A stretch of DNA of 32,000 bases from assembly GCF_000196355.1 (NCBI RefSeq), contig NC_007614.1, positions 2,160,001-2,192,000 on the forward strand, given 5' to 3'. This document shows positions 15,322 through 32,000 of the stretch, one piece after another. A program made the translations under genes and the position numbers. Each line of letters begins with the position of its first letter. Within the stretch, counting starts at the first letter, position 1. Origin of the DNA: Nitrosospira multiformis ATCC 25196. GTDB taxonomy: Bacteria; Pseudomonadota; Gammaproteobacteria; Burkholderiales; Nitrosomonadaceae. The notes below the pieces were generated by a model, which had not been told where the DNA came from, did no database searches, and was given only the letters and a program-made list of their open reading frames with translations.

Positions 15322-15908
15322 GTAGTTCCTCCTCTTGGGGAGGCGGAACCGCCTAGATAGGCCGGGTGCCGAAAAACGTACTGAGCCGGAGCATCGAGAT
15401 CCACTCAACACGTTCTAATAGCTTCTCGTCATCCAAAGAATCGACAAGAAAGAAAATGGCATTATCTGGCAGTCCTGCCGTCCTGGGGCCTTGAGCCCGG
15501 TAGACCGATGACTTTGCGTCCCCCGCTTTCGCGAGATTTGCCTTTTACAGATTAAAAATTGCAGCGTTATCGTATCTGAACTCCCCAGGGGGTATGGGTG
15601 AAGCAACTGCACAAAAATCATTCTGTTCGTTGCTTTATTTAAAGGTGAAAAATGCTGCCGCTCCCGAACCCCGAGGAGATTTCGAAATTTGCAATTCTTG
15701 CAAACCAAACTTCCTGCCACTCCGGGTCAAACAGTACTCCTCCTGGTCGAAGAATTTTACATATCACTGCAGAATGGAAGAGCTCGAAGCAAACAAGGCT
15801 GATTTTATTGGAGTTTTAATTTAGGCACGAAAATTGCTAAAGAAGCTCCGATAGGCCGAAAACGAAGTTTCGAACCTATCCAACAAAAACTTATCAGGAG
15901 AACAAATA

Positions 15909-17845: not shown

Positions 17846-19612
17846 TTACTTGATCACTGTCACATTCACCGAAGCAGATGCTGTATTGCCCGCCGCATCT
17901 CTGGCGACCGTCCAGATAGTGTGTGCTCCCGCGCGCACATTGCTTGGGCGGGTATTCCAGCTATATCCTAACGTACTTCCTTTTCCGGTAGCCTTGAGCA
18001 CGCCGTCGATGTAGAGCGTACAGGTGATTCCGGAAGCGCCGCTATCATCGCTTGCATTCACGCTGATGGCCACATTGCTGCCCGAAACATTGCCTGTGAC
18101 CGGATTTACGATCTTCACCTGTGGCGCGGTAGTATCCCTGGCCACCGTTGTCGTTCCGTTTGCCACATTCACCGAGACGGTGGTCGAAGCCTTGGAGTTG
18201 CCGGCCGCATCGAATGCATAAGCGGTCAGGTTCGCCATACCGTTGGCTACGCCTGCCGAATCCCAGGTGAAGGCGAACGGCGCCGTGGTGTCGACTGCGA
18301 CTGTGGTATTGTTGACCCGCAACTCGACACGAGTCACGCCGACGTTATCGCTCGCAGCCACGTTTACGCCGACCAGGCCTGTTACGCTTGATCCGCCAGC
18401 AGGGGAAGTGATGGAAACCGCCGGAGCCTGCGTATCTGCTGTCAGCGTGGTGCCGGCGGCGGCCTGTACGGCACGCGCCGCATTCACTCGCCCATAGCCG
18501 TAGTAAGGATCGCGCCCTGGCGTTCCAAGATCCACCGCCGTGGAATACAGCAGACTCTCGATCTGGGTATTGGATAATGTCGGCTTTGCCGCCATCATGA
18601 GCGCCACCACCCCAGCCGTTACCGGGCTTGAGAACGACGTGCCGGAAACCGCGCCATAGCCGCCACCCTTGGTAGTGCTCCAGATTCCTGCACCGGGAGC
18701 CGCGAGAGCAATGTAATTACCATAACTAGACCAGCTCGTCCGTACGTCATTTCCGTCAGTGGCAGAGACAGGAATCATGCTGGTGGTTGCGGCATAATTT
18801 TGCTGTACGCCAGTGTTGCCCCCGCTGACAATGACAAGGCCGCCTTTGTTCTTCAGGTATTGCGCCGCACTGCGAGTACTCGCACTGTCGGTCAGTCCGA
18901 GAAAGCTGGCATTGGCGACGCGAACCCCGCGGTCTGCCGCATAGATAAGCCCTTGGGAAATCGCACTCCAGGTGGCATACCCATCAGAGCCACTTACCCG
19001 GATCGGCATGATCTTCGCCCGTGCCGCCACCGAGGCCACCCCCAGCGCGTTATTGCCTGCCGCTCCCGCCGCACCCGCAACCTTGGTGCCATGCCCGTAA
19101 ACATCCGATGTATTGGAATTGTTCTCGTAGAAATTCCAGCCTGGCACCAGTTCCGTAGCCAGATCAGGGTGAGTGCTATCGACTCCTGAATCCAGGATGG
19201 CGATGGTCACGCCGCTGCCCAGGGAACTGTCCCAGGCGGACGGAGCGCCAATCTTGGGCAAATGCCAGGCGCTGCCATAGTAGGGATCGTTCGGAATGAG
19301 CGCGGGTTCGACTTCCTGGTCGATCTCGGCAAACTTGAGCGCCGGATGATGCGCAAGCCTTGCCGCCACCGCCTTCTCGGAGGCATTACCCGGCAAGTCG
19401 ACGATATACAGATCGCTCTGCCCGATCTTCCTGCCCTTGCCGCCATGTTCGCCCAGAACCTTGGCCAGTTCCTTTTCCGGCAAGCCGGCACGCGGCATGA
19501 CCAGGATGCGACCCTTCGCCCAGCCAACCGGCTTGTTCATTCCAGGCCCCCTGCCCTCCGGAGGCTCTGCACTGGAAATGACCGGACCCAATCCCAGCAA
19601 AACTGCCAGTAT
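17846..19612. repeat. direct repeat copy B (S8 gene body)
   Basis: Counterpart of 13441-15201. Copy B carries 6 extra nt near its 3' end (protein NTRPSNVRAG versus NIRNVAAG in copy A). Confidence 0.85.
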
Positions 19613-19726
19613 CGCCCCTGCAAAACGGCAGCTGGATGAGGCAACCTTTGCGCGTATGTTTGATATGAACCTCTCGGCAAGCCGGGCCGCTACACCGGCC
19701 TGCTCTTCCCTCTTGTCGGCGTTCAT
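17846..19726 (-). CDS. secreted S8 subtilisin-family serine protease with I9-like propeptide and two C-terminal Ig-like domains, paralog 2
   Basis: 626 aa, with ATG 19726 preceded by GAAAGGAG. It has the same triad contexts and domain order as 13441-15321. There is no other in-frame ATG/GTG/TTG before the h-region. Confidence 0.9.
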   Translation of the reverse strand: MNADKREEQAGVAARLAERFISNIRAKVASSSCRFAGAILAVLLGLGPVISSAEPPEGRGPGMNKPVGWAKGRILVMPRAGLPEKELAKVLGEHGGKGRKIGQSDLYIVDLPGNASEKAVAARLAHHPALKFAEIDQEVEPALIPNDPYYGSAWHLPKIGAPSAWDSSLGSGVTIAILDSGVDSTHPDLATELVPGWNFYENNSNTSDVYGHGTKVAGAAGAAGNNALGVASVAARAKIMPIRVSGSDGYATWSAISQGLIYAADRGVRVANASFLGLTDSASTRSAAQYLKNKGGLVIVSGGNTGVQQNYAATTSMIPVSATDGNDVRTSWSSYGNYIALAAPGAGIWSTTKGGGYGAVSGTSFSSPVTAGVVALMMAAKPTLSNTQIESLLYSTAVDLGTPGRDPYYGYGRVNAARAVQAAAGTTLTADTQAPAVSITSPAGGSSVTGLVGVNVAASDNVGVTRVELRVNNTTVAVDTTAPFAFTWDSAGVANGMANLTAYAFDAAGNSKASTTVSVNVANGTTTVARDTTAPQVKIVNPVTGNVSGSNVAISVNASDDSGASGITCTLYIDGVLKATGKGSTLGYSWNTRPSNVRAGAHTIWTVARDAAGNTASASVNVTVIK

Positions 19727-20420: not shown

Positions 20421-20427
20421 TCGGGCG

Positions 20428-20919
20428 CTACTCTGTAGTGGCACGGACGAATGTTCCCGTCACGGTCACTATTCCCGGTTCGGGCAAGGCTTCAATCCGG
20501 CCCTTTTCGAAACGCACGCGCTGTAACTGCATTGCTACAGTCCACTTCAGCCAGTCCGCGAAGGGCACAGCCTTAAACGTGACCTGGACCTGATCATCCC
20601 CCAGTGCATCAATGCCATTCAAAGCATGAGAAAGTCCGAGGATGTCTGCCTGGGTTTGCGCGAGCGCATGCAAATCGCCGGATAAGGGGGGCGGAGATGG
20701 AGTAACCTTTATACGCTCGTACTCGGCCGCCTGTTGCTCGAACTCTTCCGCCTGGACGCGCAGTTGCGGAAGGTTCGAGCGCAATCGGGTACGCGCCCTG
20801 TCCGCCGAGCTGACCAGCCCCAGATAAAGTCCCGCGCTCAAAATCATTCCCAATATTGTGATGACCCGCCGCTCCCGGGGAGAGCGTGATTCCCATGCTT
20901 TCCGCAGCTGTTTCCTCAC
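20428..20919 (-). CDS. gspM: type II secretion system protein M
   Basis: 163 aa. GTG 20919 overlaps the gspL stop (GTGA). A short cytoplasmic N-terminus is followed by one TM helix (VITILGMILSAGLYLGLV) and a periplasmic domain. Its position after gspL supports the call. Confidence 0.8.
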   Translation of the reverse strand: MRKQLRKAWESRSPRERRVITILGMILSAGLYLGLVSSADRARTRLRSNLPQLRVQAEEFEQQAAEYERIKVTPSPPPLSGDLHALAQTQADILGLSHALNGIDALGDDQVQVTFKAVPFADWLKWTVAMQLQRVRFEKGRIEALPEPGIVTVTGTFVRATTE

Positions 20920-22172
20920 GGAGTCGTCACCACGAGCACAACGATTCCGGCACCCCCGTCTGTCGGTGCCGGGTTGATATCGACACTCAGATCGTTTTCC
21001 CGCAACCGGGCGGCAATACGGTTCGCGAGTCCTTCCTCCGCGGCCAGCTCAAGCGCTATTCTCCCGCTATCATAGGAAATCGCATGCAGACTGCCAGAAG
21101 CCAGTTCGCTCAATGCCGGTCCCACTGTTTTGATCATGGGCAAGAAATCGGCCGTATCGGGAACGCCTGCCGCATGCCGCGCTTCGATGAGCTTTCGCCG
21201 CATCTGTAGCGCAGGGTCCACTACCGCGACCGCAGCCGGAAATAGGGCGCGAAACCGGGTTTCCATTTGCTGATGCAAGGCACGCTCTTCATTGGCAAGC
21301 AATGCCCAGTCAGCGGCAACGGCCAGGGAATGGAGCACCAACGCTGCCGCGCCGATCCAGACTGCCGGGCGCAGACGTGAAAGAAGTCCCCTGAAAGGAG
21401 GCCAGCGTCTGTGTTTCTGCAGCAAGCTGATACTGGATTGCTGAGCCCCGCGCCAATCCCAGGTCCCCGCAATGTATACAGGAATGCCGAGCACCCGTTG
21501 CCACGCTTCGATATCTGGCGCTGCCGCAGGATTCTTCATGATCTCACCGGCACTCTCCTCAAATGTCATTGCGCCTTCAGGCTCAATTGTATAGAGCGCG
21601 ATGGATGCCGGTCTCGCTCCATGCCTTTCCGCATCTTCGAGCATGAGATGCAATGACAACGGAGGAGACGCATCGCCTCCGCAATCTGTTGCTCCCCCTT
21701 CAAACTCGCCGGTGCGCACAAAACCTTCCCGGCCCTCCCAGGCGAAACTCCATTCTCCCGGCGTCCATGGCAATAACAGTGTTTCGCAGTAAATTTCATC
21801 CACTTGGATAGCAGCTGCCTGCAGCGCATCGAGACACTGCGTCAACCTTTTCTTATCCACTGCCGCGAGTATGTCCTCGCCTCCAGCGGAACCGATCCAG
21901 CTCACTTGATTAGCCTCAGGCTCACGCAGCATTTCTTCTTCGACCGCAAACGCCAGTACTGACCCAGGCTGCCGCCTCGCAGCGTCAGGTAAGCGAGCCC
22001 GTGTGAGCAAAACCTGGGCAGCTGGAATGATCAACTGGACAGAACTCGCGTTTTTCGGCAGATCAGCTATCTGCCCCTCCCCTGTCAAGGGCAATCCATC
22101 ATCGCCCGTCCATATCCACTGGCAACTCAATGATTCCTCCAGAAGAGGACACCGGATTCTTAGCAGGCTCAT
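20916..22172 (-). CDS. gspL: type II secretion system protein L
   Basis: 418 aa. ATG 22172 overlaps the gspK stop (ATGA). It has an actin-like cytoplasmic N-domain, a single TM helix (AVWIGAAALVLHSLAVAADWAL) and a periplasmic C-domain. The call also rests on operon position. Confidence 0.85.
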   Translation of the reverse strand: MSLLRIRCPLLEESLSCQWIWTGDDGLPLTGEGQIADLPKNASSVQLIIPAAQVLLTRARLPDAARRQPGSVLAFAVEEEMLREPEANQVSWIGSAGGEDILAAVDKKRLTQCLDALQAAAIQVDEIYCETLLLPWTPGEWSFAWEGREGFVRTGEFEGGATDCGGDASPPLSLHLMLEDAERHGARPASIALYTIEPEGAMTFEESAGEIMKNPAAAPDIEAWQRVLGIPVYIAGTWDWRGAQQSSISLLQKHRRWPPFRGLLSRLRPAVWIGAAALVLHSLAVAADWALLANEERALHQQMETRFRALFPAAVAVVDPALQMRRKLIEARHAAGVPDTADFLPMIKTVGPALSELASGSLHAISYDSGRIALELAAEEGLANRIAARLRENDLSVDINPAPTDGGAGIVVLVVTTP

Positions 22173-23083
22173 GAATATTTACGCCAGACAATAACGGGCC
22201 ACCCGCCCTCCTCACGGTTAAGGAGGACCACTCCCCCGGCATGGGCTTCGCCGATAACTACACTGAGTGCCGCAAGAAAATAATTGCTACTGGTGCCAAT
22301 ATCGTTTTCCTCCACCGCAGCGCCCTGAGGAAGACGATTGAGAAAATCGGCATGATCACGAAAATGGGCGCGCGCGCGCTGGAAAGTCAATATGCGGGCA
22401 TTTCCAATTCCCAGACCCTCAACAATGGCAGCAAGCACTTCGGGGGGCGCCGTATTGACATTGACAGTGGTAAAGCTCGGCAGGGCCGTCACGAACGGAC
22501 GCAAACGCGCGCGGATATCCCTGTTGAAACCGCGAATGCGGGCCAGTTCCGCTACATCGGTCAAGGGCCTGTTGGCAGTAAGGTAAGAAGGGTTCAGCAC
22601 ACTGTAATATTCATCCTCGGCGCCGTGCTGGGGACGAGGTTCGCTGTCCACGTCTATCCAGTCAGCCAATGCATCGGCAAGCGCATCCGGCAAATCGAGC
22701 AAGGCCAGCAAGCGCTTGAAGTAAGCAAGCTGTGTCGCACTGATTTTTCCATCGGGAGCCAGGTTGTTCAGATTGAACAAGCCCTGCTGATCGTGGATGT
22801 GGCCCGTGAGTTCACCGTTTTCAATGGGCATCGCCGGAATCTGCAATGCCCAGGGTTCGCCCAGGTGATCGACGCTGCCCATCCGGCCATCATCGCTCAG
22901 CACAGCGCGGACCCAGTCCACCCCCGCCTTGACCATCGCCTGCGCCTGAACGTAATCCTGCGCAAGCTCGCTTTGCCGTGACCAGATACCCTGTGCGGTA
23001 ATGATCGCTGTTGCGGTTATCGACGCGAGCGCCACGACACCCATGGCAAGCACGACTGCTACCCCACGTTGTCCTGTTCTCAT
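22169..23083 (-). CDS. gspK: type II secretion minor pseudopilin K
   Basis: 304 aa. The N-terminus QRG/VAVVLAMGVVAL lacks Glu+5, as is typical for GspK. It also has a GEPWA motif and HhH-like C-terminal repeats (VNVNTAPPEVLAAI). Confidence 0.85.
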   Translation of the reverse strand: MRTGQRGVAVVLAMGVVALASITATAIITAQGIWSRQSELAQDYVQAQAMVKAGVDWVRAVLSDDGRMGSVDHLGEPWALQIPAMPIENGELTGHIHDQQGLFNLNNLAPDGKISATQLAYFKRLLALLDLPDALADALADWIDVDSEPRPQHGAEDEYYSVLNPSYLTANRPLTDVAELARIRGFNRDIRARLRPFVTALPSFTTVNVNTAPPEVLAAIVEGLGIGNARILTFQRARAHFRDHADFLNRLPQGAAVEENDIGTSSNYFLAALSVVIGEAHAGGVVLLNREEGGWPVIVWRKYS

Positions 23084-23087
23084 GATG

Positions 23088-23708
23088 TCATTGGAAAATA
23101 CGTTCTATTTCCTCCCCCGAAGCAAGGGCAATGCGCAGGCGCACGGCTTGGGGAATGGAAGAAATCGTAGACACCGGCGCGTCAGGCGCTCCACTTGGCC
23201 ATGCATTCACCCAGGCACGATTTGCGGTAAGATACTGCAACTCCATTTTTGCCACCCCGCTCAATACCGGATAACGCATGGCAACTGTCCGGGGACCGAT
23301 GTCGAGACCAGGCCACAACCAAAGCTCGATTTCCCGTTTATCATTCAACTGGTAAGCAATCCGCCGTGCGGCATCCGTTTCTTCGATGGAACCCAGACGA
23401 CTGAATTCCATGTAAGGCAACAAGCCTCCATCCGGCGCCGCTTTAATCACTCCGCGCCAGGCCGGCAGGACGCCTGAGCCGGTTCGAACCGGACGCGGTA
23501 TCGCAAGTTGCACATCATGCTCAAACCTTGTGAGGAATAAATCTATGCGGCGCCATTTTTCAGTTTCCCGCCTGACATACTCTTGCGCGTCGAGTATCGC
23601 TCCAAGTCCACGATAAGACATCACTGCCAGCAAAGACAGAACAGTCAGCGCAACCAGCAGCTCAATCAGGGTAAATCCCCGGAATCCGGTTTCACGCATG
23701 GATTTCAT
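23088..23708 (-). CDS. gspJ: type II secretion minor pseudopilin J
   Basis: Prepilin-type N-terminus MKSMRETGFRG/FTLIELLVAL, 206 aa. Confidence 0.85.
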   Translation of the reverse strand: MKSMRETGFRGFTLIELLVALTVLSLLAVMSYRGLGAILDAQEYVRRETEKWRRIDLFLTRFEHDVQLAIPRPVRTGSGVLPAWRGVIKAAPDGGLLPYMEFSRLGSIEETDAARRIAYQLNDKREIELWLWPGLDIGPRTVAMRYPVLSGVAKMELQYLTANRAWVNAWPSGAPDAPVSTISSIPQAVRLRIALASGEEIERIFQ

Positions 23709-23824
23709 GGAAATGGATTACGAATACCTTCCTCGCCGGGGACACGAAGGCACTAAGTCATAGGAGCGTTGAGCAGCATCTTCCATCCCATATAAGCTGC
23801 CATCGTCCTGTTCCGGCAGCTTGC

Positions 23825-24232
23825 TCACGGATTCCCCGGGACTGCCGGTTGCGCCAGATATCCTGTCAGATGCGCAAGCAGGTGCGATTCCCCAGCAGGC
23901 GCAAATACCGAAATATTGGCTCGCCGGAATGAGGGATTTGCGGTTTCGGTAATATCCGCCCGCCACGTGAAATCCATGTTTCCTTGTTTTGCTGTTCCAC
24001 GATATGTGCCCGGCGACGGCCAGGCGCCGCGGGTACGCTGCTCTGCCAGGAAATTTTCCGCAACCCATCCCGCCAGCAGTCGCGAGCGCAATTCGCCGAC
24101 AGTGAGCGTGCCCTGCCCTGCAACACGCAATGCGGCCATGAGAGCAACCGCAATGATTGCCAGTGCGACCAGAACCTCAACCAGCGTGAATCCACGGCCT
24201 CTACCGCAGCTGCCCGGATATGATTTCATCAT
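23825..24232 (-). CDS. gspI: type II secretion minor pseudopilin I
   Basis: Prepilin-type N-terminus ...GRGRG/FTLVEVLVAL. ATG 24232/24229 is preceded by GAGGGAAGG. The ORF track start at 24307 is unlikely because it would overlap gspH by 107 nt and has no RBS. Confidence 0.8.
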   Translation of the reverse strand: MMKSYPGSCGRGRGFTLVEVLVALAIIAVALMAALRVAGQGTLTVGELRSRLLAGWVAENFLAEQRTRGAWPSPGTYRGTAKQGNMDFTWRADITETANPSFRRANISVFAPAGESHLLAHLTGYLAQPAVPGNP

Positions 24233-24719
24233 TCGGCCTTCCCTCTCCCGGCAATGCCTGCACATCGCCGACCGGAGATCCTGTGACTGTATAGCGCTCC
24301 GTCCCAAAAGATATCTTTATGGCATAAGCCGGCATGAAACCGTGAGGATTGAACTCCAGTCGCATAAAATCTGCTGGCGACATCTCGATCAACATGCCCG
24401 CGATCTTCATACCCTGCGGAAATGTTCGTTCCCCGAAGAGATCATTGTTACGAATTTCCGACCAACCGGCACCCCATTGATTCCCCCAGAACCGATAGCT
24501 TGCGCCGTCTGTTGTCCAGGCGAGAGATCTTCCTGACATACGCGCCTCGGTTCCCGCCAGGTCAAGGAGTTGCGCCAGCCGTTCCGCTTCGACGCGAAGA
24601 AGAGCTCGTTCGTCCGGTCGCACGGTGCTGCTGATCAGTCCGGCAAAAAGCCCGATGATCACCAGTGCGACAAGCACTTCGAGGAGCGTGAATCCGCCTC
24701 CGGCTTTTATCTCAGTCAC
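24201..24719 (-). CDS. gspH: type II secretion minor pseudopilin H
   Basis: GTG 24719 follows AGGA. Prepilin-type N-terminus MTEIKAGG/GFTLLEVLVAL, 172 aa. Confidence 0.8.
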   Translation of the reverse strand: MTEIKAGGGFTLLEVLVALVIIGLFAGLISSTVRPDERALLRVEAERLAQLLDLAGTEARMSGRSLAWTTDGASYRFWGNQWGAGWSEIRNNDLFGERTFPQGMKIAGMLIEMSPADFMRLEFNPHGFMPAYAIKISFGTERYTVTGSPVGDVQALPGEGRPNDEIISGQLR

Positions 24720-24733
24720 GAATCCTGTTGGCC

Positions 24734-25255
24734 TTACAGGTTCCAGGAGCCGATATCCGCATCGTTACCGTCTCCCCCGCGGGCGCCATCTGCCCCGAAA
24801 CTGAAAACATCGATTTCGCCGTGAACCCCGGGGTTCAGGTATTGATAAGGGTTGCCCCAGGGATCCTTCGGAAGGCGCTCGACATATCCTCCGGCTTTCC
24901 AATTGGGTGGAATCGGTGGATCGGTCGGCTTCGTTACCAGCGCCTGCAATCCCTGTTCAGTCTTGGGGTAGCGATGGTTGTCGAGGCGGTACAGCTTGAG
25001 CATCTGCATCAAGCTTGCGACATCCTGTTTTGCTGCGATGATACGCGCTTCGTCAGGGCGGCTGATGATTTTCGGCACCACCATTACAGCGAGAATTCCT
25101 AGAATCACGACCACCACCATGACCTCGAGCAAAGTAAAGCCGCTCTGCCTTCCGGGCCGTCCATACTCTGAGGCGATCAAATGGCCTGGAGCTTGTTGTC
25201 TTTCAGAGAGTAGATTGGAACCAGATTTCTCCATCATTTTTACGTAAATACCCAT
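24734..25255 (-). CDS. gspG: type II secretion major pseudopilin G
   Basis: The mature part is unmistakable: G/FTLLEVMVVVVILGILAVMVVPKI...AKQDVASLMQMLKLYRLDN...DPWGNPYQY...SFGADG. The start is uncertain: ATG 25255, ATG 25237/25234, or in-frame TTG 25180. None has a good SD. Confidence 0.9.
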   Translation of the reverse strand: MGIYVKMMEKSGSNLLSERQQAPGHLIASEYGRPGRQSGFTLLEVMVVVVILGILAVMVVPKIISRPDEARIIAAKQDVASLMQMLKLYRLDNHRYPKTEQGLQALVTKPTDPPIPPNWKAGGYVERLPKDPWGNPYQYLNPGVHGEIDVFSFGADGARGGDGNDADIGSWNL

Positions 25256-25618
25256 CAAAAAACGGACAAAATGGAACGAAGATTACCCAAGAAATTGTTC
25301 ATTGTCGATTCCGGTTTTGCACCATGGCACGCGCCTCCCGATCTGTCCTCCTAATCCACGTCTCGATGCAGCGCAACATTGGCCTCGCCGATAAAAATTT
25401 TCAGCTGCCTCAGGAAGTGACGTCAACAATAATCTCAAAAAAAACATATCCCTTATTCGCCAAACAGGAATAAATTAACGCTCATTTTGCATGTTTAGAA
25501 TCAGGGAAGCCGGAAAACAAATGACAGACGGGAACAACGCCTGCAGTTGCATCAAGCACGGAATTTTTCATACGTAGCAATTTTCATTATCAAACTTCTA
25601 AAGGGGAATACACTTATC

Positions 25619-27457
25619 ATGCCAATATCATCATTAAAGGGCACCTGCATCTACAGATATGTTTCTATCGTCGCCATGGCGGCCCTGTTCCACCCGGGAG
25701 TCAGTCTTGCTGGTGGAAACGAAGTCAACTTCTCGCTCACCGATAACCCTGCCCGCTGGTTTGATACCGGCACAACAATTGCCGGCACGCGCTCGCTGGC
25801 CGTGGCAAAACCGGGGGTGCGGGTAAATTTTTCAGGGAATTCAAACACGGTTCACACCCGAACCAGCGTAATTTATCCAACAGGCGCAGCGGGTATGCCG
25901 TTTAACACCCCGCCAAGAAAAAGCGGAGACAGCGTTACCTTGAAAACCCCCGGTTTGTATGTCTTTACCTGCAGTATCCATCCCTACATGCTAGGGGCCG
26001 TCATTGTCGATGACCCGAATACGAGCGGGCTGGATTTGGGGAATTCTATCAGCTTGATCAACGGCATCACGGTTCCAAGCAGCAGTGATCTCGCCACCCG
26101 TTTGCTGCACACCTTCTTTGTCGCGACCAATCCGGCAAACTGGCAGAATTACGCCTCCAATACGCCCTGGCACATCACCTATCCAAATGTGGATGTGCGG
26201 GTGGACATAGGCGTAGTCAATCTACCTACCGTGCTCAATGCCCGCTATGGGAATGATCGCGCCCTGGAGCCTCTCCAGAATCCGGTCATGCCGGCAGTGG
26301 GCGAAGTATGGGTGGCAACGCAGTTCGAAACCGCTTCCGGCAAATCCAAGCCAGGCACGGTCACCGCCGTAAGCGGCGCAACGTGGCAGGTAACTCGAAA
26401 GGTCGCATTGCCGTCGATCAACATGAATAACGCGCACAACATGTGGACCGATAGAAATCAGAATGTCATTTACGCGACCCAATGGTTCGACAGTAAATTG
26501 GCTGTCTATGACCGACAGACAGGAGCATTGATTCGCAATGTGTCGGTAGGAGAAGCGCCGGCTCATGTGATGACGCGGACGGACACCGACGAGCTTCATA
26601 TCACAAACAATGGTGATACGCGGACAGACTCGGTCATGGAACTTGCGCCACTTGCCACCGGAGTGGAGCGGCGTATAGATATCGGGCGGGGAAATGCTCA
26701 TGCCCACTGGATGAGCCATGATGGAAAAAAAATGGTTACCCCGAATGTCCTCACGGGGGATACCACAGAGTATAGCTTCGGCTCGAACAGTGTCGAGTCC
26801 ATTCTGCCCGCGAGCACCCCCTTTGGGCACCCGCTGGCCACGGGAATGATGCCGGATGCCAGCAAGTATTATGTGGCCAACATGCTGGACAACACGATGA
26901 CGGTGGTCAACATGAATACTCATGCCGTTATCAAGACCATCAATCTGATTGCCAACTATAACCCGGTTACCGGCGCGATTACCGGTCCTGTAGGCGCTCT
27001 GCCGATTCAAACTCCTGTCTCTCCGGACGGCAAAAACATGGTGACCGCCAATATGCTCAGCGGGACCATTACCGTGATCGATACTCGTCCCGGCGTACCA
27101 ACTTCAGATGCGGTTGTTGCCATGCTTCCATGTGATCCCGGCTGCCATGGCGTGCAATATGGCGCCAAGCAGGGAGGGGGATACTATGCCTATGTTGCGA
27201 GCAAATTTTCGAATAGATTACTCGTCGTCGATCCCGATCCAAATGGAGATGGGAATCCGTCGGATGCTGTAATTGCAGGAAAAGTAGGACTTTTCGCGTC
27301 TGCCGGAACTCAGCGTGATGCCACCATTACCGGGAATCCGGGGATGGGAGGTCAAGGCGTCCTCCCGGTCCCCGTCATCTACAATGGGTGGGTTCAGAAT
27401 TTACCTGCCGCATGGAAAAGCCAGTTGACAGCTGCTCAACAGAACCCGGCCCAGTAG
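25619..27457 (+). CDS. secreted cupredoxin (amicyanin-like type-1 Cu site) fused to YVTN-type beta-propeller; function unknown
   Basis: ATG 25619 is preceded by AAGGGGA, and there is a Sec signal (IVAMAALFHPGVSLA/GG). The T1Cu ligand set is H79...C118-x2-H121-x2-M124 (TVHT ... FTCSIHPYMLGAVIV). About 450 aa of blade-like repeats follow (YVANMLDNTMTVVNMNT, MVTANMLSGTITVIDT, YAYVASKFSNRLLVVDP). The ORF track start at 25547 is a TTG without RBS. Confidence 0.8.
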   Translation: MPISSLKGTCIYRYVSIVAMAALFHPGVSLAGGNEVNFSLTDNPARWFDTGTTIAGTRSLAVAKPGVRVNFSGNSNTVHTRTSVIYPTGAAGMPFNTPPRKSGDSVTLKTPGLYVFTCSIHPYMLGAVIVDDPNTSGLDLGNSISLINGITVPSSSDLATRLLHTFFVATNPANWQNYASNTPWHITYPNVDVRVDIGVVNLPTVLNARYGNDRALEPLQNPVMPAVGEVWVATQFETASGKSKPGTVTAVSGATWQVTRKVALPSINMNNAHNMWTDRNQNVIYATQWFDSKLAVYDRQTGALIRNVSVGEAPAHVMTRTDTDELHITNNGDTRTDSVMELAPLATGVERRIDIGRGNAHAHWMSHDGKKMVTPNVLTGDTTEYSFGSNSVESILPASTPFGHPLATGMMPDASKYYVANMLDNTMTVVNMNTHAVIKTINLIANYNPVTGAITGPVGALPIQTPVSPDGKNMVTANMLSGTITVIDTRPGVPTSDAVVAMLPCDPGCHGVQYGAKQGGGYYAYVASKFSNRLLVVDPDPNGDGNPSDAVIAGKVGLFASAGTQRDATITGNPGMGGQGVLPVPVIYNGWVQNLPAAWKSQLTAAQQNPAQ

Positions 27458-27506
27458 CAGCTTGTAAGATTATTACCTGGGGTAGAAAACTCCAGGCAAT
27501 GGAAAG

Positions 27507-27533
27507 CGGTGAGATGGCTCGACTGTCTCACCG
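27507..27533 (+). terminator. possible terminator after the cupredoxin-propeller gene
   Basis: 8-bp stem CGGTGAGA/TCTCACCG with an 11-nt loop, 50 nt after the stop. The downstream stretch is only moderately T-rich (GCTCTCTGTATTTCC). Confidence 0.3.
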
Positions 27534-27706
27534 GCTCTCTGTATTTCCTCCTGTTCACATACTAAAAACTGGGATGCACTCAGGCAAGATTGGCCGCAGC
27601 ACCTCGACAGAACTACCTAGATGCCACTGCGACAGCCATCGTCACATCACCCATGCGCCACGCAGGCGACATCCTGTTATCTTCGAGGCAGCTGCAGGCA
27701 CATCGT

Positions 27707-28753
27707 TCAATAGATTCCACCCCCCAGCTGAGACGAGACCAACACCCCGGTTTCAGCTGAAAGGTCATACCGGGTTGTGCCATTTCCCGGACTCGTCCAC
27801 TGGCCGAGATGGAATGATCCCGATCCCGAGAGTCTGTCTACCATGACATTGCGGAAAGTCAGAGGCTGGCCGCTTTGACAGACGGTTGGGGCAATTGTGG
27901 GCCTTAGAAAATATGCCGAGCCGACACCCAGGCGGATTGCAATGCCATTGTCAATCGCCAACGCGGTTTCGACATCCAGACCAATGCCTCGGGCGGATTC
28001 AACGCTCACCCATTGGTCCTGGATGGTACGGGCGAGAAAGGTGAGAAGGCGTCCCATCCGGTCGCGCGTGTCGAGATGCGCATCGGCAATTACCCCATTC
28101 AAGCCAGGCGCAGTCAGAAATTCTCGATCGAGAGTCATGCGACGGTTATAAGGATCGGCCAGCGCATCGTCAGAGTACACCGTGCCGTTCAACGCTACGA
28201 AGTCAAACTGACCCAGAACTGCAAGTCCCGCGCTGGTGCCCCCGATAGGTGCATTGCGACCAATCAGTTCATTAATCGCCGTTTCGAGCGCAGTTCCTTT
28301 CCAGAGATTAATGTAATCACTCTGGTCGCCGCCCGCGATAAACAAAATTTCCGCTTTTTTGATCCGATCGAGCACGAACGGATCGCTGGCGGCCTCACGC
28401 GTCTTTATGACCAGTGTCTCGATGGAATCTATACCGCCCATGTCGTAGACATACTGGTTGTAGCCGTCGGCTCCCCGTACACGGATCACCACAAAGTCGC
28501 CGCCTCCCGCCTTCTGGATCATCCACTTGAATGCAGCGTCCACATCGGGACCTCCGCCCATCAGGAGAGTTGATGGCGATGGTGGCCTTTGCGGCAGGAC
28601 AGCATCAACCGCGTTGCCCGTAAGGTAATATTCGTAGCCTTTGGGCTTGGGCTCTGCCAGAACCCCGAAGGTCATGAAGACCACCGCAGAGGCCAGGGCA
28701 AGGTGTGCAAAAAGCCGCGGGAAGGATTTATTGGCACAATCTCCGGTATCCAT
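27707..28753 (-). CDS. secreted cyanophycinase-like peptidase (S51 family)
   Basis: GAGGGAG RBS and signal peptide (LALASAVVFMTFGVLA/EP). It has the nucleophile elbow GGTSAGLAV, and FIAGGDQ and DAHLDTRDRMGRLLTF blocks matching what I recall of cyanophycinase (GGTSAG; D-x-H-F..R.R..RL). Confidence 0.75.
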   Translation of the reverse strand: MDTGDCANKSFPRLFAHLALASAVVFMTFGVLAEPKPKGYEYYLTGNAVDAVLPQRPPSPSTLLMGGGPDVDAAFKWMIQKAGGGDFVVIRVRGADGYNQYVYDMGGIDSIETLVIKTREAASDPFVLDRIKKAEILFIAGGDQSDYINLWKGTALETAINELIGRNAPIGGTSAGLAVLGQFDFVALNGTVYSDDALADPYNRRMTLDREFLTAPGLNGVIADAHLDTRDRMGRLLTFLARTIQDQWVSVESARGIGLDVETALAIDNGIAIRLGVGSAYFLRPTIAPTVCQSGQPLTFRNVMVDRLSGSGSFHLGQWTSPGNGTTRYDLSAETGVLVSSQLGGGIY

Positions 28754-29189
28754 TATCTCCCTCTAAAGAGAAGGATCGGGCTGAACAGGACCGATCACCT
28801 GTTTTGTTCGAGTAATGTCATTGGCGCCAAAATGCTTTCAAGCGAAAAGAAGATGAAAACAGGGTTTAATTCCGTCCCGGACAGAGTTCATAAAGGAGTA
28901 TAAACATGTTTATGTTAGCAGCTATTCAGCTCATACGCTGCCACAGGCAATGTGGAATACACAGGCGCAACTTCGCCAGGCCTCAATACGCTTGAACAAG
29001 GTACAATTGCAATCATGAGCAATTCAGCAAAATCTGAGCGATAAAAAGTGACATCACCAAATCTTACTGAATATGCATCAATCTCCACCATGAACTATCG
29101 TTTTTTTCAGGAACCGGTTATAGGAATCCATTCCTGATCGAAACTCTCCGATTTTTACTCAGCCGTATTGAAAAGTTAAGCATTAAAGA

Positions 29190-29720
29190 ATGCCGGAAAT
29201 CTCGATCGACCGGTCGAATCGTGCGCAAACAGCCCTTGTATATTTAATCATCCTCGCTGCACTCGCGCTGCTTGGAGGGGTACTGTTGTACTGGACACGC
29301 CTTTGGTTCATCCCCCACCCTCAGCCCAACTTCGAGTCAGGCACGCGTGCGGACGTGGAAGCGGCCGAAGATGTATCGGGTGTGAGTGACCTGTTCGGTA
29401 TTGCACAACGAGAACAATCCTCTATTGCTGTTCCTGTCGGACCTGAGGTCAGGCTGTTCGGGGTTGTCGCCGCTTCCCGGCACGGGCGGGGCTATGCGAT
29501 CCTGCAAGTGGATGGAAGAGAGACGCTTGCGGTGCGCGAAGGTGAAAACATCGCTCCCGGCCTCCAGCTGGCTGAGGTTCACGCCGAACATATTGTCCTG
29601 GAACGTGACGGAATGCGGGAAACACTTGTATTGCAGCGTCAGAATCCGCCTGCAGACCCTGCTCGTCCGGTGGAGACAGACCTGCCTGTCGAGCTTCACG
29701 CGCCGGTCATAACTGAGTGA
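29190..29720 (+). CDS. gspC: GspC-like T2SS protein (TM plus HR domain only; may be annotated GspN in some genomes)
   Basis: 176 aa with a single TM helix (ALVYLIILAALALLGGVLLYW). An HR/PilP-like block follows (LFG...VRLFGVVAA...GYAILQVDGRETLAVREGENIAPGLQLAEVHAEHIVLERDG). It sits immediately upstream of gspD, and no PDZ domain is present. Confidence 0.65.
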   Translation: MPEISIDRSNRAQTALVYLIILAALALLGGVLLYWTRLWFIPHPQPNFESGTRADVEAAEDVSGVSDLFGIAQREQSSIAVPVGPEVRLFGVVAASRHGRGYAILQVDGRETLAVREGENIAPGLQLAEVHAEHIVLERDGMRETLVLQRQNPPADPARPVETDLPVELHAPVITE

Positions 29721-29732
29721 TGTCGTCATCTC

Positions 29733-32000
29733 ATGGGCTACAGAGGTAAAATCGTGCGGCATCGCTCGCTATGTGCAGTTTTTTTATGGATGGCAGTGGC
29801 AGGCTGGGTTACCGAGGCTTGGGCCGTAAATCCCTCTGCCACCCTGCCCGTCGAGGAAATTGGCGTCCCGCCGAGCGTCCTGCCGGAAGCGGATTCCCTG
29901 CGCGCCAGTAAATCCAGGTCTTCTGCCGGTCAGGATCTCGTTACACTCAATTTCGTCAATGCCGATATTGAAGGGGTAGTGAAAGCAGTCAGCGAAATTA
30001 CCCGAAAAAATTTCATGCTCGACCCCCGCGTCAAGGGTACGATCAACATCGTTTCAGCCAAGCCAGTGCCGAGGTCGTCGGTCTACGAAGTATTCCTGTC
30101 GGCACTGCGATTGCATGGATATGCAGTCGTTGAGGATTACGGCATCATCAGGATCGTTCCGGAAAGTGATGCCAAGCTATACCAGGGCCCGACACTTGGT
30201 CCCACGAACAAGCGGCAGCTCGCGGGCGACCGTATCCAGACACAGGTATTCACGCTGCAGTACGAATCCGCGGTGCAGATGGTGCCGATCCTGCGTCCGC
30301 TGATCGCTCCAAACAACAGTATCACTGCAAATCCCAACAGTAACACCCTGGTTATTACAGACTACGCGAGCAATCTCCAACGCCTGGCGAAAATAATTGA
30401 TTCGGTGGATCAGCCAAGTGGAACCGAGCCTGTCTCGATACCCCTTCAGCACGCCTCGGCGATCGATGTCGCGCAAACCGTGAACCGGCTGTTTTCAGAA
30501 TCGACGCAGTCCCAGGCCGAGGGCGCCGCGGACCCCACCCAGCAGCGTTTCACAGTCGTCGCCGACGCCCGCTCGAATACCCTCCTTGCACGCTCCGGAA
30601 ACCGGGCAGCGCTTGCGCGTCTGCGCCAGCTGGTAACAGTGCTCGATTCTCCCACCAGCGCTGCCGGCAACATGCACGTCGTCTTTCTCAAGAATGCCGA
30701 TGCAGTCAGGCTTGCCGAAACCCTCAGGGCGATCTATCACAACATGGCGTCCCCGGTTTCCTCATCTTCGGGACTGAGCCAGGGCACCGGCACAGCTTTT
30801 GGAACATCTTCCCTGGGTACATCCACCGGCGGGGGGATGGGTGCCTCGTCAGGCACCTCAACAGGGGGGTCGATGGGCACTTCCATGCCCGGTTCCAGCC
30901 TTGGTGCGGGGACTGTTCCCGCTGCTTCCACCGTCACCCCGGCTCCGATGCAAACTGGCGCAACTTCCGCCACCCCCGGCATCATTCAGGCGGATGCAGC
31001 CACCAACTCGATCATTATTACTGCCCCGGATGCTATTTATAATAATTTGCGCGCGGTGGTGGAGAAGCTCGACGTGCGCCGCGTGCAGGTTTATATTGAA
31101 GCGCTGATTGCCGAAATCACTGCCGACAGAGCCGCGGAATTCGGCATCCAGTGGCAGAATCTGAGCAATGCCGCGCAAGGTGGCACCCAGGTTTTCGGTG
31201 GCACCAACTTCAATGCCGGCACTGCCGGAGGCGGCAGTATCATCTCCACCGCCCAGAATCCGATAGCGAATGCAGCCTCCGGTCTGACTATCGGCATCAT
31301 GAATGGCCTTGTCACGGCTATTCCCGGCATCGGCCCTGTTCTCAACATTCATACGCTCATCCGCGCGCTGGAAACGGATGCCAATGCCAACATTCTTTCC
31401 ACCCCCACCCTGCTGACACTGAATAACGAAGAAGCCAGGATCATCATCGGGCAGAACGTTCCGATTCCCACCGGCCAATTCATTCCGCCAGTAGGAGGCG
31501 CCGTTACCTCCCCGTTTCAAACCGTTTCACGCCAGGACGTGGGACTATCATTGAAGATCAAGCCCCTTATCTCGGAAGGCAATACTGTCCGTGTGCAGAT
31601 TTTTCAGGAAGTCTCGAGCGTCGTTCCTGGCACGGTCAACGCCACCAACGGGTTGATTACCAACAAACGCTCGATAGAATCGACAGTGCTGGTTGACGAC
31701 GGGCAGATTCTCGTGCTCGGCGGTCTGATGCAGGATTCGGTAAATGACTCGGTTGAAAGAATTCCACTGGTCGGGGCGATTCCGCTGTTCGGACAATTGT
31801 TCAGTTACAACAAGCGCTCACGCAACAAAACCAATCTGATGGTATTCCTGCGGCCGACGCTGATGCGCGCGGGCGACGCCGCCGATCCGCTTTCTGACGC
31901 ACAGTACGATCGGGTGCTGGGCGAACAGAAAAAAGTGAGACCCAAGTTTAATCTTGTGCTTCCGGATATGGAATCGCCTACTTTGCCGCCGCGTCAACCA
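29733..32000 (+). CDS. gspD: type II secretion system secretin GspD (3' end beyond window)
   Basis: The frame is open from ATG 29733 to the window end (756 codons, no stop), so it is absent from the ORF track. It has a signal peptide (VFLWMAVAGWVTEAWA/VN), an N0 motif VTLNFVNADIEGVVKAVSEITRKNF, and repeated N-domains. The secretin core is present (LSTPTLLTLNNEEARIIIGQNVP, ITNKRSIESTVLVDDGQILVLGGL, IPLVGAIPLFGQLF). Confidence 0.92.
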   Translation, partial: MGYRGKIVRHRSLCAVFLWMAVAGWVTEAWAVNPSATLPVEEIGVPPSVLPEADSLRASKSRSSAGQDLVTLNFVNADIEGVVKAVSEITRKNFMLDPRVKGTINIVSAKPVPRSSVYEVFLSALRLHGYAVVEDYGIIRIVPESDAKLYQGPTLGPTNKRQLAGDRIQTQVFTLQYESAVQMVPILRPLIAPNNSITANPNSNTLVITDYASNLQRLAKIIDSVDQPSGTEPVSIPLQHASAIDVAQTVNRLFSESTQSQAEGAADPTQQRFTVVADARSNTLLARSGNRAALARLRQLVTVLDSPTSAAGNMHVVFLKNADAVRLAETLRAIYHNMASPVSSSSGLSQGTGTAFGTSSLGTSTGGGMGASSGTSTGGSMGTSMPGSSLGAGTVPAASTVTPAPMQTGATSATPGIIQADAATNSIIITAPDAIYNNLRAVVEKLDVRRVQVYIEALIAEITADRAAEFGIQWQNLSNAAQGGTQVFGGTNFNAGTAGGGSIISTAQNPIANAASGLTIGIMNGLVTAIPGIGPVLNIHTLIRALETDANANILSTPTLLTLNNEEARIIIGQNVPIPTGQFIPPVGGAVTSPFQTVSRQDVGLSLKIKPLISEGNTVRVQIFQEVSSVVPGTVNATNGLITNKRSIESTVLVDDGQILVLGGLMQDSVNDSVERIPLVGAIPLFGQLFSYNKRSRNKTNLMVFLRPTLMRAGDAADPLSDAQYDRVLGEQKKVRPKFNLVLPDMESPTLPPRQP

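What the first reader, a model, noticed from the sequence alone, without database searches (positions are those of the whole stretch)
20428..32000. T2SS locus split into two outward-facing halves, each sharing a divergent promoter region with a secreted-enzyme gene
Seen: gspG-M runs leftward from about 25255 with tight coupling (ATGA at K/L, GTGA at L/M, 32-nt H/I overlap). The gspC-like gene and gspD run rightward from 29190. The 3.9 kb between them holds only two genes, both with Sec signals. Region 25259-25618 is shared by gspG and the cupredoxin-propeller gene. Region 28754-29189 is shared by the S51 peptidase and gspC/D. No gspE, gspF, gspN or gspO lies in the window. Inference: the embedded genes are strong candidates for dedicated T2SS cargo co-regulated with the machine. 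The two S8 proteases just beyond gspM are further candidates. Cargo genes inside gsp loci are known in a few systems, but this double-divergon layout is not one I recognise.
Basis: partly seen in the sequence, partly recalled or inferred. Interest (0 to 1): 0.5.

Follow-up and report, generated by a model that had tools for sequence, protein, structure and literature searches.

The report
Secretion-system locus with variable inserted genes
A soil ammonia-oxidising bacterium (Nitrosospira) carries an ordinary, complete type II secretion gene cluster built as two back-to-back operons; two extra genes have been dropped into the gap between them in some strains but not in close relatives, so the layout alone does not show that they are the system's cargo.

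Summary
gspG-M (leftward), a short gspC and gspD (rightward), the gene overlaps and the two embedded genes are all confirmed. The "missing" gspE and gspF lie just past the window end, directly after gspD.

The layout is not a new architecture. A related T2SS and three Nitrosospira-like loci have the same back-to-back gspCDEF | gspG-M(N) arrangement, with only 0.2-0.5 kb between the halves. The window carries a roughly 3.5 kb block (about 25476-28980) inserted in the middle of that spacer. Both gsp-proximal control segments are left in place.

The spacer varies among relatives:
- Cupredoxin-propeller plus S51 peptidase in N. multiformis-like strains.
- Cupredoxin-propeller alone in N. lacus-like strains.
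- Empty in L091, L093 and L094. L091 and L093 nest inside the insert-bearing clade.

The cupredoxin-propeller protein has 57-81% identical orthologs in Nitrosomonas and comammox Nitrospira. None of 78 such loci has gsp genes nearby, so its link to the T2SS is not supported.

The S51 peptidase sits independently inside an Ideonella T2SS operon, between gspE and gspF, so a link is plausible for it. The S8 proteases next to gspM are conserved neighbours, and one is preceded by a c-di-GMP riboswitch.

Verdict: an ordinary system, with the cargo inference only partly supported.

The parts
20428..20919 (-). gspM
   Evidence: Pfam T2SSM 141.8 bits. GTGA overlap with the gspL stop.
20916..22172 (-). 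gspL
   Evidence: Pfam T2SSL + GspL_C. TIGR01709, 184 bits.
22169..23083 (-). gspK (minor pseudopilin)
   Evidence: NF037980, 274.5 bits. ATGA overlap with gspL.
23088..23708 (-). gspJ
   Evidence: Pfam T2SSJ + N_methyl. TIGR01711, 68.2 bits.
23825..24232 (-). gspI (start taken at ATG 24232)
   Evidence: Pfam T2SSI + N_methyl. TIGR01707, 75 bits. 32-nt overlap with gspH.
24201..24719 (-). gspH
   Evidence: Pfam GspH + N_methyl. The TIGR01708 score of 61.6 is below its cutoff of 80.
24734..25255 (-). gspG (major pseudopilin); start uncertain (25255 or 25237/25234)
   Evidence: TIGR01710, 189.9 bits. Pfam T2SSG, 146.6 bits.
25259..25475 (.). Native gspG-proximal control region, retained in relatives that lack the insert
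   Evidence: 90% identical to the empty-site locus L091 up to window 25475, and 85% to L093. Holds one weak sigma-70-like site on the minus strand at 25426-25397.
25476..28980 (.). Inserted block of about 3.5 kb. The left junction is sharp; the right junction is approximate.
   Evidence: Absent from L091, L093 and L094, where gspG and gspC are 0.5 kb apart. No terminal or direct repeats. Native GC3 of about 0.60.
25619..27457 (+). Cupredoxin (type-1 Cu site) + YVTN beta-propeller protein, 612 aa, with a signal-peptide-like N-terminus
   Evidence: H79/C118/H121/M124 invariant. TIGR02276 repeat, 46.9 bits. Propeller fold matches. Orthologs in beta-AOB and comammox Nitrospira.
27476..27542 (+). 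Two hairpins just after the cupredoxin-propeller stop, in the convergent gap; a possible terminator
   Evidence: RNA fold -33.9 kcal/mol, z = -2.56. Not picked up by the terminator scan.
27707..28753 (-). S51-family, cyanophycinase-like serine peptidase, 348 aa, with a signal-peptide-like N-terminus
   Evidence: Pfam Peptidase_S51, 32.8 bits. TIGR02069 scores 70.6, below its 126.6 cutoff. GGDQ and GTSAG motifs are invariant.
28981..29189 (.). gspC-proximal control region (a diverged homolog of the empty-site gspC upstream), with the invariant core AAGGTACAATTGC at 28998-29010
   Evidence: Alignment A2 and sliding identity. The motif is unique in the window.
29190..29720 (+). Short gspC (TM + HR domain only)
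   Evidence: Pfam T2SSC, 54.8 bits. NCBIfam GspC models score below cutoff.
29733..32000 (+). gspD secretin (runs off the window; gspE and gspF follow)
   Evidence: Pfam N0 + Secretin_N x3 + Secretin. L002 shows gspD 789 aa, gspE 487 aa and gspF 401 aa downstream.
17846..19726 (-). S8 subtilase + 2 Big_7 domains, next to gspM
   Evidence: Pfam. The adjacency is conserved in N. lacus and in loci with or without the insert.
13441..15411 (-). Second S8 subtilase + Big_7
   Evidence: Pfam.
15465..15552 (-). c-di-GMP-I riboswitch in the leader of the S8 gene 13441-15411
   Evidence: Rfam RF01051, 69.7 bits against a gathering score of 35, full-length match.

Best explanation
The window comes from a Nitrosospira multiformis-like ammonia oxidiser. 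It holds a complete, conventional type II secretion system. The system is encoded as two divergent operons: gspC-D-E-F rightward (E and F lie just off-window) and gspG-H-I-J-K-L-M leftward.

That back-to-back layout, with a spacer of about 0.2-0.5 kb, is the ancestral state of this T2SS lineage. In part of the genus, a block of about 3.5 kb with native base composition sits in the middle of the spacer. It carries two convergent genes, each with its own upstream DNA. The promoter-proximal DNA of both gsp operons was left in place.

The block is dynamic. It contains the cupredoxin-propeller gene alone in N. lacus-like strains, that gene plus the S51 peptidase in N. multiformis-like strains, and nothing in other close relatives.

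Functional reading (inferred, not shown):
- The machine works like any T2SS. Sec-exported proteins fold in the periplasm and are pushed through the GspD secretin by the GspG-K pseudopilus, which is powered by GspE.
- The S51 cyanophycinase-like peptidase and the flanking S8 subtilases are plausible exoproteins of this system.
- The cupredoxin-propeller protein is most likely a periplasmic copper redox protein of the nitrifier lifestyle. Its position here is most likely a genus-specific accident of insertion, not a sign of dedicated cargo.
For: - Component identities.
- gspE and gspF downstream of gspD.
- An outgroup T2SS (GspL 54% identical) has gspF-E-D-C <-|-> gspG...N with 215 nt between the halves.
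- The spacer is empty in L091, L093 (GspL 85-86%, GspD 94% identical to the window) and L094.
- Cupredoxin-propeller only in N. lacus and L084-85, L095-97. Both genes in N. multiformis Nl7 and Nl18 and in L086, L087 and L092.
- In an NJ tree of concatenated GspK/J/I/H/G/C, L091 and L093 nest inside the insert-bearing clade.
- Breakpoints: homology to the empty site runs up to 25475 and resumes weakly from about 28980 and strongly from 29150.
- No relics of either gene in the empty sites or in the N. lacus spacer.
- Native GC3. No flanking repeats.
- Cupredoxin-propeller orthologs in 78 other loci lack gsp or S51 neighbours. Of these, 72 have at least 1 kb upstream, 44 have at least 5 kb on both sides, and 33 have about 10 kb on both sides.
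- The S51 homolog lies between gspE and gspF in Ideonella.
- The S8-gspM adjacency is conserved.
Against: - The cupredoxin-propeller gene occupies the same spacer in two Nitrosospira clades that are about 68% identical in T2SS proteins. That could reflect selection for linkage and not just shared ancestry.
- Three of the four S51 contexts sampled outside Nitrosospira are not near a T2SS, so the S51-T2SS link rests on two lineages.
- Whether Nitrosomonas and Nitrospira genomes that carry the cupredoxin-propeller gene encode this T2SS elsewhere was not tested.
- The NJ tree has no support values, and branch lengths inside the N. multiformis-like clade are short.
- No expression or secretion data exist for the embedded genes. 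A proteome table lists only a GspG (Nmul_A1898) of N. multiformis, which I could not map onto this window.
Confidence: 0.6

Rival explanations
1. One reading: both embedded genes are dedicated T2SS substrates, placed in the divergent control region so that they are co-regulated with the machine (a pulA/pulC-like design, used twice).
For: - Both products have signal-peptide-like N-termini.
- Both genes face away from a gsp operon across 360-nt and 436-nt spacers.
- The cupredoxin-propeller gene sits in the same spacer in two Nitrosospira clades.
- S51 is T2SS-embedded in Ideonella.
- Substrate genes adjacent to T2SS clusters are known. One example is the Hxc cluster with its putative substrate psp in P. 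fluorescens F113 (table in PMC3570484). pulA-pulC is another, from my own knowledge.
Against: - Close relatives with near-identical T2SS genes have an empty spacer, and these nest inside the insert-bearing clade.
- 78 cupredoxin-propeller loci in other nitrifiers are not T2SS-linked.
- The cupredoxin-propeller protein is far more conserved than the secretion machinery, which is unusual for an exoenzyme.
- The gsp-proximal control DNA is the same with or without the insert, and no motif is shared between spacers.
Confidence: 0.13
2. Pure hitch-hiking: the divergent spacer is simply a permissive landing site that disrupts no operon. Neither embedded gene has any functional connection to the T2SS.
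For: - Three occupancy states among relatives.
- No shared regulatory motif.
- Each gene has its own upstream DNA within the insert.
- S51 homologs are not T2SS-linked in three of the four contexts sampled outside Nitrosospira.
- Related S51 proteins (37% identical) occur on plasmids of Gram-positive Priestia, which has no T2SS.
Against: S51 landed in T2SS loci twice in different configurations: in the divergent spacer in Nitrosospira, and between gspE and gspF in Ideonella. A T2SS locus takes up about 0.3% of a genome. Two hits in five sampled lineages is therefore unlikely by chance, by a rough estimate of my own at the order of 1e-4.
Confidence: 0.22
3. The S51 peptidase is not cargo but a periplasmic accessory or processing factor of the T2SS.
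For: It has an in-operon position between gspE and gspF in Ideonella, with gaps of 2 and 35 nt. It is an exported protein with a conserved catalytic Ser motif.
Against: It is absent from N. lacus-like and 'empty' Nitrosospira loci whose T2SS is otherwise the same, so it cannot be required by the machine. No known T2SS accessory belongs to family S51 (from my own knowledge).
Confidence: 0.05

Closest known systems
Pseudomonas aeruginosa Xcp T2SS (xcpPQ divergent from xcpR-Z) and betaproteobacterial gsp clusters split into divergent operons (from my own knowledge; not retrieved in the paper searches)
   Same: The T2SS is encoded as two back-to-back operons with GspC and GspD on one side and the pseudopilins plus L and M on the other. 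The prepilin peptidase is encoded elsewhere.
   Different: Here gspE and gspF go with gspC-D (gspCDEF | gspG-M) and gspN is missing. GspC is very short (176 aa, HR domain only). The spacer has been invaded by one or two unrelated genes in some strains.
Klebsiella pullulanase secreton (pulA divergent from pulC-O, shared MalT-controlled region; from my own knowledge) and Hxc/LapA-type loci with the substrate gene next to the machine (P. fluorescens F113 hxcP-Z with psp, PMC3570484)
   Same: A gene for an exported enzyme lies head-to-head with, or next to, a gsp operon.
   Different: In pul, the shared regulator and the secretion dependence are experimentally established. Here there are no shared motifs, the gsp control DNA is unchanged with or without the insert, and the neighbours vary between close relatives.
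Cyanophycinases (S51: CphB; solved structures 7uqv, 3en0, 7uqw)
   Same: S51 fold family, with the GGDQ and GTSAG (catalytic Ser) motifs.
   Different: It scores below the NCBIfam equivalog cutoff (70.6 against 126.6). It is about 60-70 aa longer and has a signal peptide. It belongs to a subfamily spread through Burkholderiales and Nitrosomonadales, and its substrate is unknown.
Redox enzymes that pair an electron-transfer domain with a beta-propeller (cd1 nitrite reductase, NosZ, methylamine dehydrogenase with amicyanin, hydrazine synthase beta)
   Same: An amicyanin-like type-1 Cu domain is fused to a 7-bladed YVTN-type propeller carrying conserved His and Cys residues.
   Different: No family model is reached: L-NosZ 26.9 against 700, amicyanin 17 against 110, hydrazine synthase beta 20 against 560. 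The domain order is the reverse of NosZ. The database annotation 'copper oxidase / multicopper oxidase' is not borne out, because only one cupredoxin domain is present.

Membership tests
Type II secretion system (Gsp) | Major pseudopilin GspG with a prepilin cleavage/N-methylation motif | tested here: met
   TIGR01710, 189.9 bits (cutoff 88.85); N_methyl, 37.6 bits.
Type II secretion system (Gsp) | Minor pseudopilins GspH, I, J and K | tested here: met
   GspI, J and K are above the NCBIfam cutoffs. GspH is above the Pfam cutoff but below the TIGR01708 cutoff.
Type II secretion system (Gsp) | Inner-membrane platform GspC, L, M and F | tested here: met
   L, M and C lie in the window. GspF is on L002, a contig with identical GspC and GspD, and in relatives. 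GspC meets Pfam T2SSC only; the NCBIfam GspC models are below cutoff.
Type II secretion system (Gsp) | Secretin GspD with N0 + N1-N3 + secretin domain | tested here: met
   PF21305, 98.3 bits; Secretin_N x3; Secretin, 148.8 bits.
Type II secretion system (Gsp) | Secretion ATPase GspE | tested here: met
   Off-window. A 487-aa protein with GSPE_N1E + T2SSE lies directly after gspD on L002. The same is seen on L083 and L086.
Type II secretion system (Gsp) | Prepilin peptidase GspO/PilD | tested here: not met
   None is in the window or in the 10-kb flanks seen in relatives. It is commonly encoded elsewhere and shared with type IV pili (own knowledge). The rest of the genome could not be searched.
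Type II secretion system (Gsp) | Secretion of folded periplasmic proteins across the outer membrane | not testable with these tools
   Needs secretome comparison of wild type against gsp mutants.
Dedicated T2SS cargo (cupredoxin-propeller gene) | Genomic linkage to T2SS genes conserved beyond one lineage | tested here: not met
   None of the 78 loci outside the N. multiformis group has gsp genes nearby. The gene is linked only in Nitrosospira. At least one Nitrosospira MAG contig, L005, has 710 nt upstream with no gspG.
Dedicated T2SS cargo (S51 peptidase) | Genomic linkage to T2SS genes conserved beyond one lineage | tested here: inconclusive
   Linked in N. multiformis-like loci and, independently, in Ideonella sp. 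YS5. Not linked in three other contexts.
Cyanophycinase (TIGR02069 equivalog) | Score above the curated cutoff, and the catalytic Ser motif | tested here: not met
   70.6 bits against a cutoff of 126.6. The Ser motif GTSAG is present. It is therefore an S51 family member (Pfam 32.8 against 23.9) but not a certified cyanophycinase.
Multicopper oxidase ('copper oxidase' in database names) | Two or more cupredoxin domains with T2/T3 HxH copper motifs; Pfam Cu-oxidase domains | tested here: not met
   No Cu-oxidase Pfam hit at E <= 0.01. One cupredoxin-like region carries a single H-C-H-M type-1 site. The rest of the protein is a propeller.
Nitrous-oxide reductase (NosZ / L-NosZ) | Family model score; CuZ propeller plus CuA domain | tested here: not met
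   NF052460 scores 26.9 bits against 700, and the match covers one blade only.
c-di-GMP-I riboswitch (RF01051) | Covariance-model score above gathering, full-length aptamer, 5' of a gene | tested here: met
   69.7 bits against 35, model positions 1-87 of 87, 53 nt upstream of the S8 gene start at 15411.

The most novel reading that the evidence does not exclude
The cupredoxin-propeller protein is a copper redox enzyme specific to bacterial ammonia oxidisers. It is shared at 57-81% identity by beta-AOB and comammox Nitrospira. It has an invariant type-1 Cu site and a conserved His/Cys constellation in the propeller. On this reading it takes part in nitrogen-oxide metabolism, for example as a candidate for the still-unidentified enzyme that oxidises NO to nitrite. 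In Nitrosospira it was captured in the T2SS control region because it is exported or co-expressed with that system there.
Probability: 0.06. Interest if true: 0.8.

Novelty: new member of a known kind. Interest (0 to 1): 0.3.

Why it matters
For the T2SS itself, little changes. It is a standard system in an ammonia oxidiser, and the 'double divergon' is an insertion into a common divergent layout.

Three by-products are useful.
1. The case shows that position inside a gsp locus is weak evidence for cargo unless the linkage recurs across lineages. Here it fails for one gene and recurs for the other.
2. It yields a short list of testable exoprotein candidates for a chemolithoautotroph whose secretome is essentially unknown: an S51 cyanophycinase-like peptidase and two S8 subtilases, one under a c-di-GMP riboswitch. 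These could bear on biofilm or floc formation and on nitrogen scavenging.
3. It flags an uncharacterised copper protein that is very highly conserved across bacterial ammonia oxidisers and comammox Nitrospira. That protein deserves biochemical attention independently of the T2SS question.

Tried and rejected
- Simple sigma-70 and terminator scans of 19700-30000 gave counts at or below the shuffle expectation. They give no support for particular divergent promoters.
- I looked for a regulatory motif shared by the two spacers. The invariant AAGGTACAATTGC upstream of gspC occurs once, and near-matches are at chance level.
- I looked for mobile-element signatures (direct or inverted repeats) at the insert junctions. 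Only chance-level short repeats were found.
- I looked for gene relics of S51 or the cupredoxin-propeller gene in the empty spacers and in the N. lacus spacer. Only noise was found.
- The AlphaFold2 model of the cupredoxin-propeller protein, built from a shallow alignment, was mediocre (pLDDT 62.6). Foldseek against the PDB returned only generic 7-bladed propellers such as YncE and the archaeal YVTN S-layer protein, with cd1 NirS, NirN and hydrazine synthase beta far down the list. This does not help assign a function.
- Weak GspD and GspG hits (27-30%) lie 7 kb from the gene in four Nitrosomonas loci. They turned out to be a TPR/STN secretin with pilin-like genes, not a Gsp system, and are separated from the gene by unrelated genes.
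- Conserved neighbours of the gene in Nitrosomonas (DUF6502, DUF5666, two unknowns) and in Nitrospira are uninformative.
- Literature searches found no description of this protein or of a Nitrosospira T2SS. The proteomics supplements of PMC5960693 list a GspG (Nmul_A1898) but none of the presumed neighbours. I could not map that locus tag to the window.
- A plasmid search for S51 found only distant (36-40%) homologs.
- One look-up (P0271, Nitrosospira sp. NpAV GspL) returned nothing.

Full report
**1. What is in the window**

- On the minus strand, gspM (20428-20919), gspL, gspK, gspJ, gspI, gspH and gspG (24734-~25255) all match their T2SS families.
- The junctions are as described: ATGA at K/L, GTGA at L/M, and a 32-nt H/I overlap if gspI starts at 24232.
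- On the plus strand, a short GspC (29190-29720; 176 aa; T2SSC/HR domain only) is followed by gspD from 29733, which runs off the window.
- Between gspG and gspC lie two convergent genes. One, at 25619-27457 (+), encodes a 612-aa protein with an amicyanin-like type-1 copper site followed by a YVTN beta-propeller. The other, at 27707-28753 (-), encodes a 348-aa S51-family, cyanophycinase-like peptidase.
- Both start with signal-peptide-like segments. I judged this by eye, as no predictor was available.
- Beyond gspM lie two S8 subtilases with Big_7 domains, interleaved with PEP-CTERM proteins.
- The rest of the window is housekeeping: rmuC, cysS, a cyclophilin and an L,D-transpeptidase.

**2. 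Source organism and the 'missing' genes**

The cupredoxin-propeller protein is 97-98% identical to proteins of Nitrosospira multiformis strains and of 'Nitrosomonadales bacterium SCN 54-20'. A public contig with 100% identical S51, GspC and GspD sequence continues past the window end. It shows gspD (789 aa), then gspE (487 aa), then gspF (401 aa), followed by unrelated genes. N. lacus and other relatives show the same order.

The locus is therefore gspCDEF -> facing <- gspGHIJKLM, a complete core T2SS. No gspN or gspO is present in the locus. A more distant relative of the same T2SS lineage does have gspN after gspM.

**3. The layout is an insertion into a simple divergon**

A related T2SS (GspL 54% identical; L089 and L090) has gspF-E-D-C and gspG...N back to back, with 215 nt between them. 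Three Nitrosospira-like metagenome loci also have nothing between gspG and gspC, only about 0.5 kb of spacer:
- L091 and L093, whose T2SS proteins are 82-96% identical to the window.
- L094, on a deeper branch.

N. lacus and five related contigs carry the cupredoxin-propeller gene in the spacer but no S51. N. multiformis Nl7 and Nl18 and three metagenome loci carry both genes.

In a neighbour-joining tree of concatenated GspK/J/I/H/G/C, the empty loci L091 and L093 fall inside the clade that carries both genes (no support values). Gain and loss must therefore both have occurred, or the region recombines.

Comparison with the empty site places the left junction sharply at 25475/25476. The right junction is fuzzy. 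Diverged homology resumes at about 28980, including an invariant AAGGTACAATTGC at 28998-29010, and strong identity resumes from about 29150.

So the 217 nt next to gspG and roughly 210 nt next to gspC are native control DNA that is present with or without the insert. Each embedded gene brings its own upstream segment: 143 nt for the cupredoxin-propeller gene and about 225 nt for S51. The block has native GC3, no flanking repeats and leaves no gene relics in empty sites. How it moves is unknown.

**4. Is the cupredoxin-propeller protein T2SS cargo?**

A scan of one genome per species found 138 relatives, of which the best 80 were fetched. Apart from the two N. multiformis genomes, all 78 loci lack any gsp ortholog or S51 gene in the fetched flanks. 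These loci come from Nitrosomonas spp., comammox-type Nitrospira and several probably mis-binned MAGs, at 57-81% identity. Of the 78, 72 have at least 1 kb upstream, 44 have at least 5 kb on both sides, and 33 have about 10 kb on both sides.

Weak secretin and pilin hits in four loci belong to a different, pilus-like cluster several kb away. One Nitrosospira MAG contig (L005) has 710 nt of upstream DNA with no gspG.

The protein is much better conserved than the secretion machinery. Against N. lacus it is 85% identical, compared with 61% for GspL and 52% for GspC and GspM.

- The type-1 Cu ligands H79, C118, H121 and M124 are invariant among close orthologs. H273, H316, H361, H363, C505, C509 and H510 in the propeller are invariant or nearly so, even when relatives at 37-57% identity are included.
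- None of the curated families is reached: amicyanin, NosZ/L-NosZ, hydrazine synthase beta or YncE. The database name 'copper oxidase' is not justified by the domain content.
- The structure model is mediocre and shows only a generic 7-bladed propeller.

I conclude that this is a conserved exported copper redox protein of bacterial ammonia oxidisers. Its T2SS neighbourhood is specific to Nitrosospira. Linkage gives no support for dedicated-cargo status, though it cannot exclude it.

**5. Is the S51 peptidase T2SS cargo?**

Its close homologs (55-82% identity, all with N-terminal signal-like segments and invariant GGDQ and GTSAG motifs) are scattered through Burkholderiales and Nitrosomonadales. 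Four contexts outside Nitrosospira could be examined before the look-up cap.
- In Ideonella sp. YS5 the gene sits inside the T2SS operon, in the order gspK-L-M-N-D-E-[S51]-gspF. It is on the same strand, with gaps of 2 and 35 nt.
- In the other three contexts, including Ramlibacter sp. 2FC, it is unlinked.

Two independent placements in T2SS loci, in different configurations, are unlikely by chance. My own rough estimate is of the order of 1e-4, because a gsp locus is about 0.3% of a genome. The sample is small, however. A role as a T2SS exoprotein is plausible. A role as an essential accessory is unlikely, because the same T2SS exists without it.

**6. The S8 proteases**

An S8 + Big_7 protease lies next to gspM in every Nitrosospira-like locus that extends that far, regardless of the insert state. 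By conserved linkage, these are better cargo candidates than the embedded genes.

The distal S8 gene (13441-15411) is preceded by a full-length c-di-GMP-I riboswitch at 15465-15552 (69.7 bits against a gathering score of 35). This ties it to the biofilm/motility second-messenger circuit.

**7. Regulation**

Nothing tested supports co-regulation of the insert genes with the gsp operons.
- Promoter-like sites are at chance frequency.
- No motif is shared between the spacers.
- The gsp-proximal DNA is conserved independently of the insert.
- Two hairpins follow the cupredoxin-propeller stop, at 27476-27542 (z = -2.56). This is consistent with the two insert genes being separate, convergent units.

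A proteomics study of N. multiformis lists a GspG (Nmul_A1898) at about 0.03% of the proteome. None of the presumed neighbours (Nmul_A1896-A1902) was found. I could not map that tag to the window, so I give this no weight.

**8. Comparison with known systems**

Divergent T2SS operons (P. aeruginosa xcpPQ / xcpR-Z) and substrate genes next to or head-to-head with gsp operons (Klebsiella pulA / pulC-O; Hxc with LapA) are textbook cases. I cite those from my own knowledge. The one instance retrieved here is the P. fluorescens F113 table, which pairs hxcP-Z with its putative substrate psp (PMC3570484).

The present locus is a new member of this known kind. Its particulars are the gspCDEF/gspG-M split, a very short GspC, no gspN, and a spacer that accepts and loses passenger genes.

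**9. Verdict**

Interest in the T2SS finding is low to moderate. The cupredoxin-propeller family is the most interesting loose end.

Noticed in passing
window 15465-15552 (-): A full-length c-di-GMP-I riboswitch (RF01051, 69.7 bits against gathering 35) sits in the leader of the S8 + Big_7 protease gene 13441-15411. No second copy was found upstream of the other S8 gene.
   Followed up: partly
window 25619-27457 (+); loci L003-L082: The cupredoxin-propeller protein is shared at 57-81% identity by Nitrosospira, many Nitrosomonas species and comammox-type Nitrospira. The type-1 Cu ligands are invariant, and H273, H316, H361, H363, C505, C509 and H510 in the propeller are conserved. Databases call it 'copper oxidase', which the domain content does not support. 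I found no paper that describes it.
   Followed up: partly
L099 7001-7996 (Ideonella sp. YS5): A 68% identical S51 homolog is inserted between gspE and gspF inside a gspK-L-M-N-D-E-F operon.
   Followed up: partly
L031 and L076 (N. communis Nm44); L037 and L074 (MAG RBC022); L020 and L039 (N. ureae MAG): Some Nitrosomonas genomes carry two copies of the cupredoxin-propeller gene on different contigs.
   Followed up: no
L012, L021, L023, L026, L045, L053, L063, L068, L069, L075, L077, L078, L080: Contigs of MAGs labelled Acidobacteriota, Blastocatellia, Vicinamibacterales, Nitrososphaera, Methylomirabilis, Patescibacteria and others carry orthologs 63-79% identical to the Nitrosospira protein. 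This most likely reflects binning contamination by nitrifier contigs. L080 lies on a 1.67-Mb contig, so that explanation deserves a check there.
   Followed up: no
window 29190-29720 (+); L083, L089, L095: GspC in this T2SS lineage is only 157-176 aa (TM + HR domain, no PDZ or coiled coil). It scores below both NCBIfam GspC cutoffs. gspN is present in the outgroup L089 but absent from all Nitrosospira loci.
   Followed up: no
window 28998-29010 (+): AAGGTACAATTGC, about 185 nt upstream of gspC, contains the palindrome CAATTG. It is invariant across loci with and without the insert, while the surrounding DNA has diverged. It may be an operator or promoter element of gspCDEF.
   Followed up: partly
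window 11706-12386 (+), 15909-16580 (+), 17001-17672 (-): Three PEP-CTERM (exosortase-sorted) proteins are interleaved with the two S8 proteases next to the T2SS. The same mix is seen in N. lacus and L086.
   Followed up: no
window 28915-29091 (-): Gene callers place a 58-aa ORF with no Pfam hit in the S51-gspC spacer of the identical contigs L001 and L002. It overlaps the conserved motif and is probably spurious.
   Followed up: no
L006-L050 (Nitrosomonas loci): In Nitrosomonas, the cupredoxin-propeller gene has recurrent neighbours. A DUF6502 gene lies divergently upstream in 25 loci, followed by a DUF5666 protein with a long low-complexity tail in 22 loci. An unknown protein of about 215-230 aa lies directly downstream in 29 loci.
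   Followed up: partly
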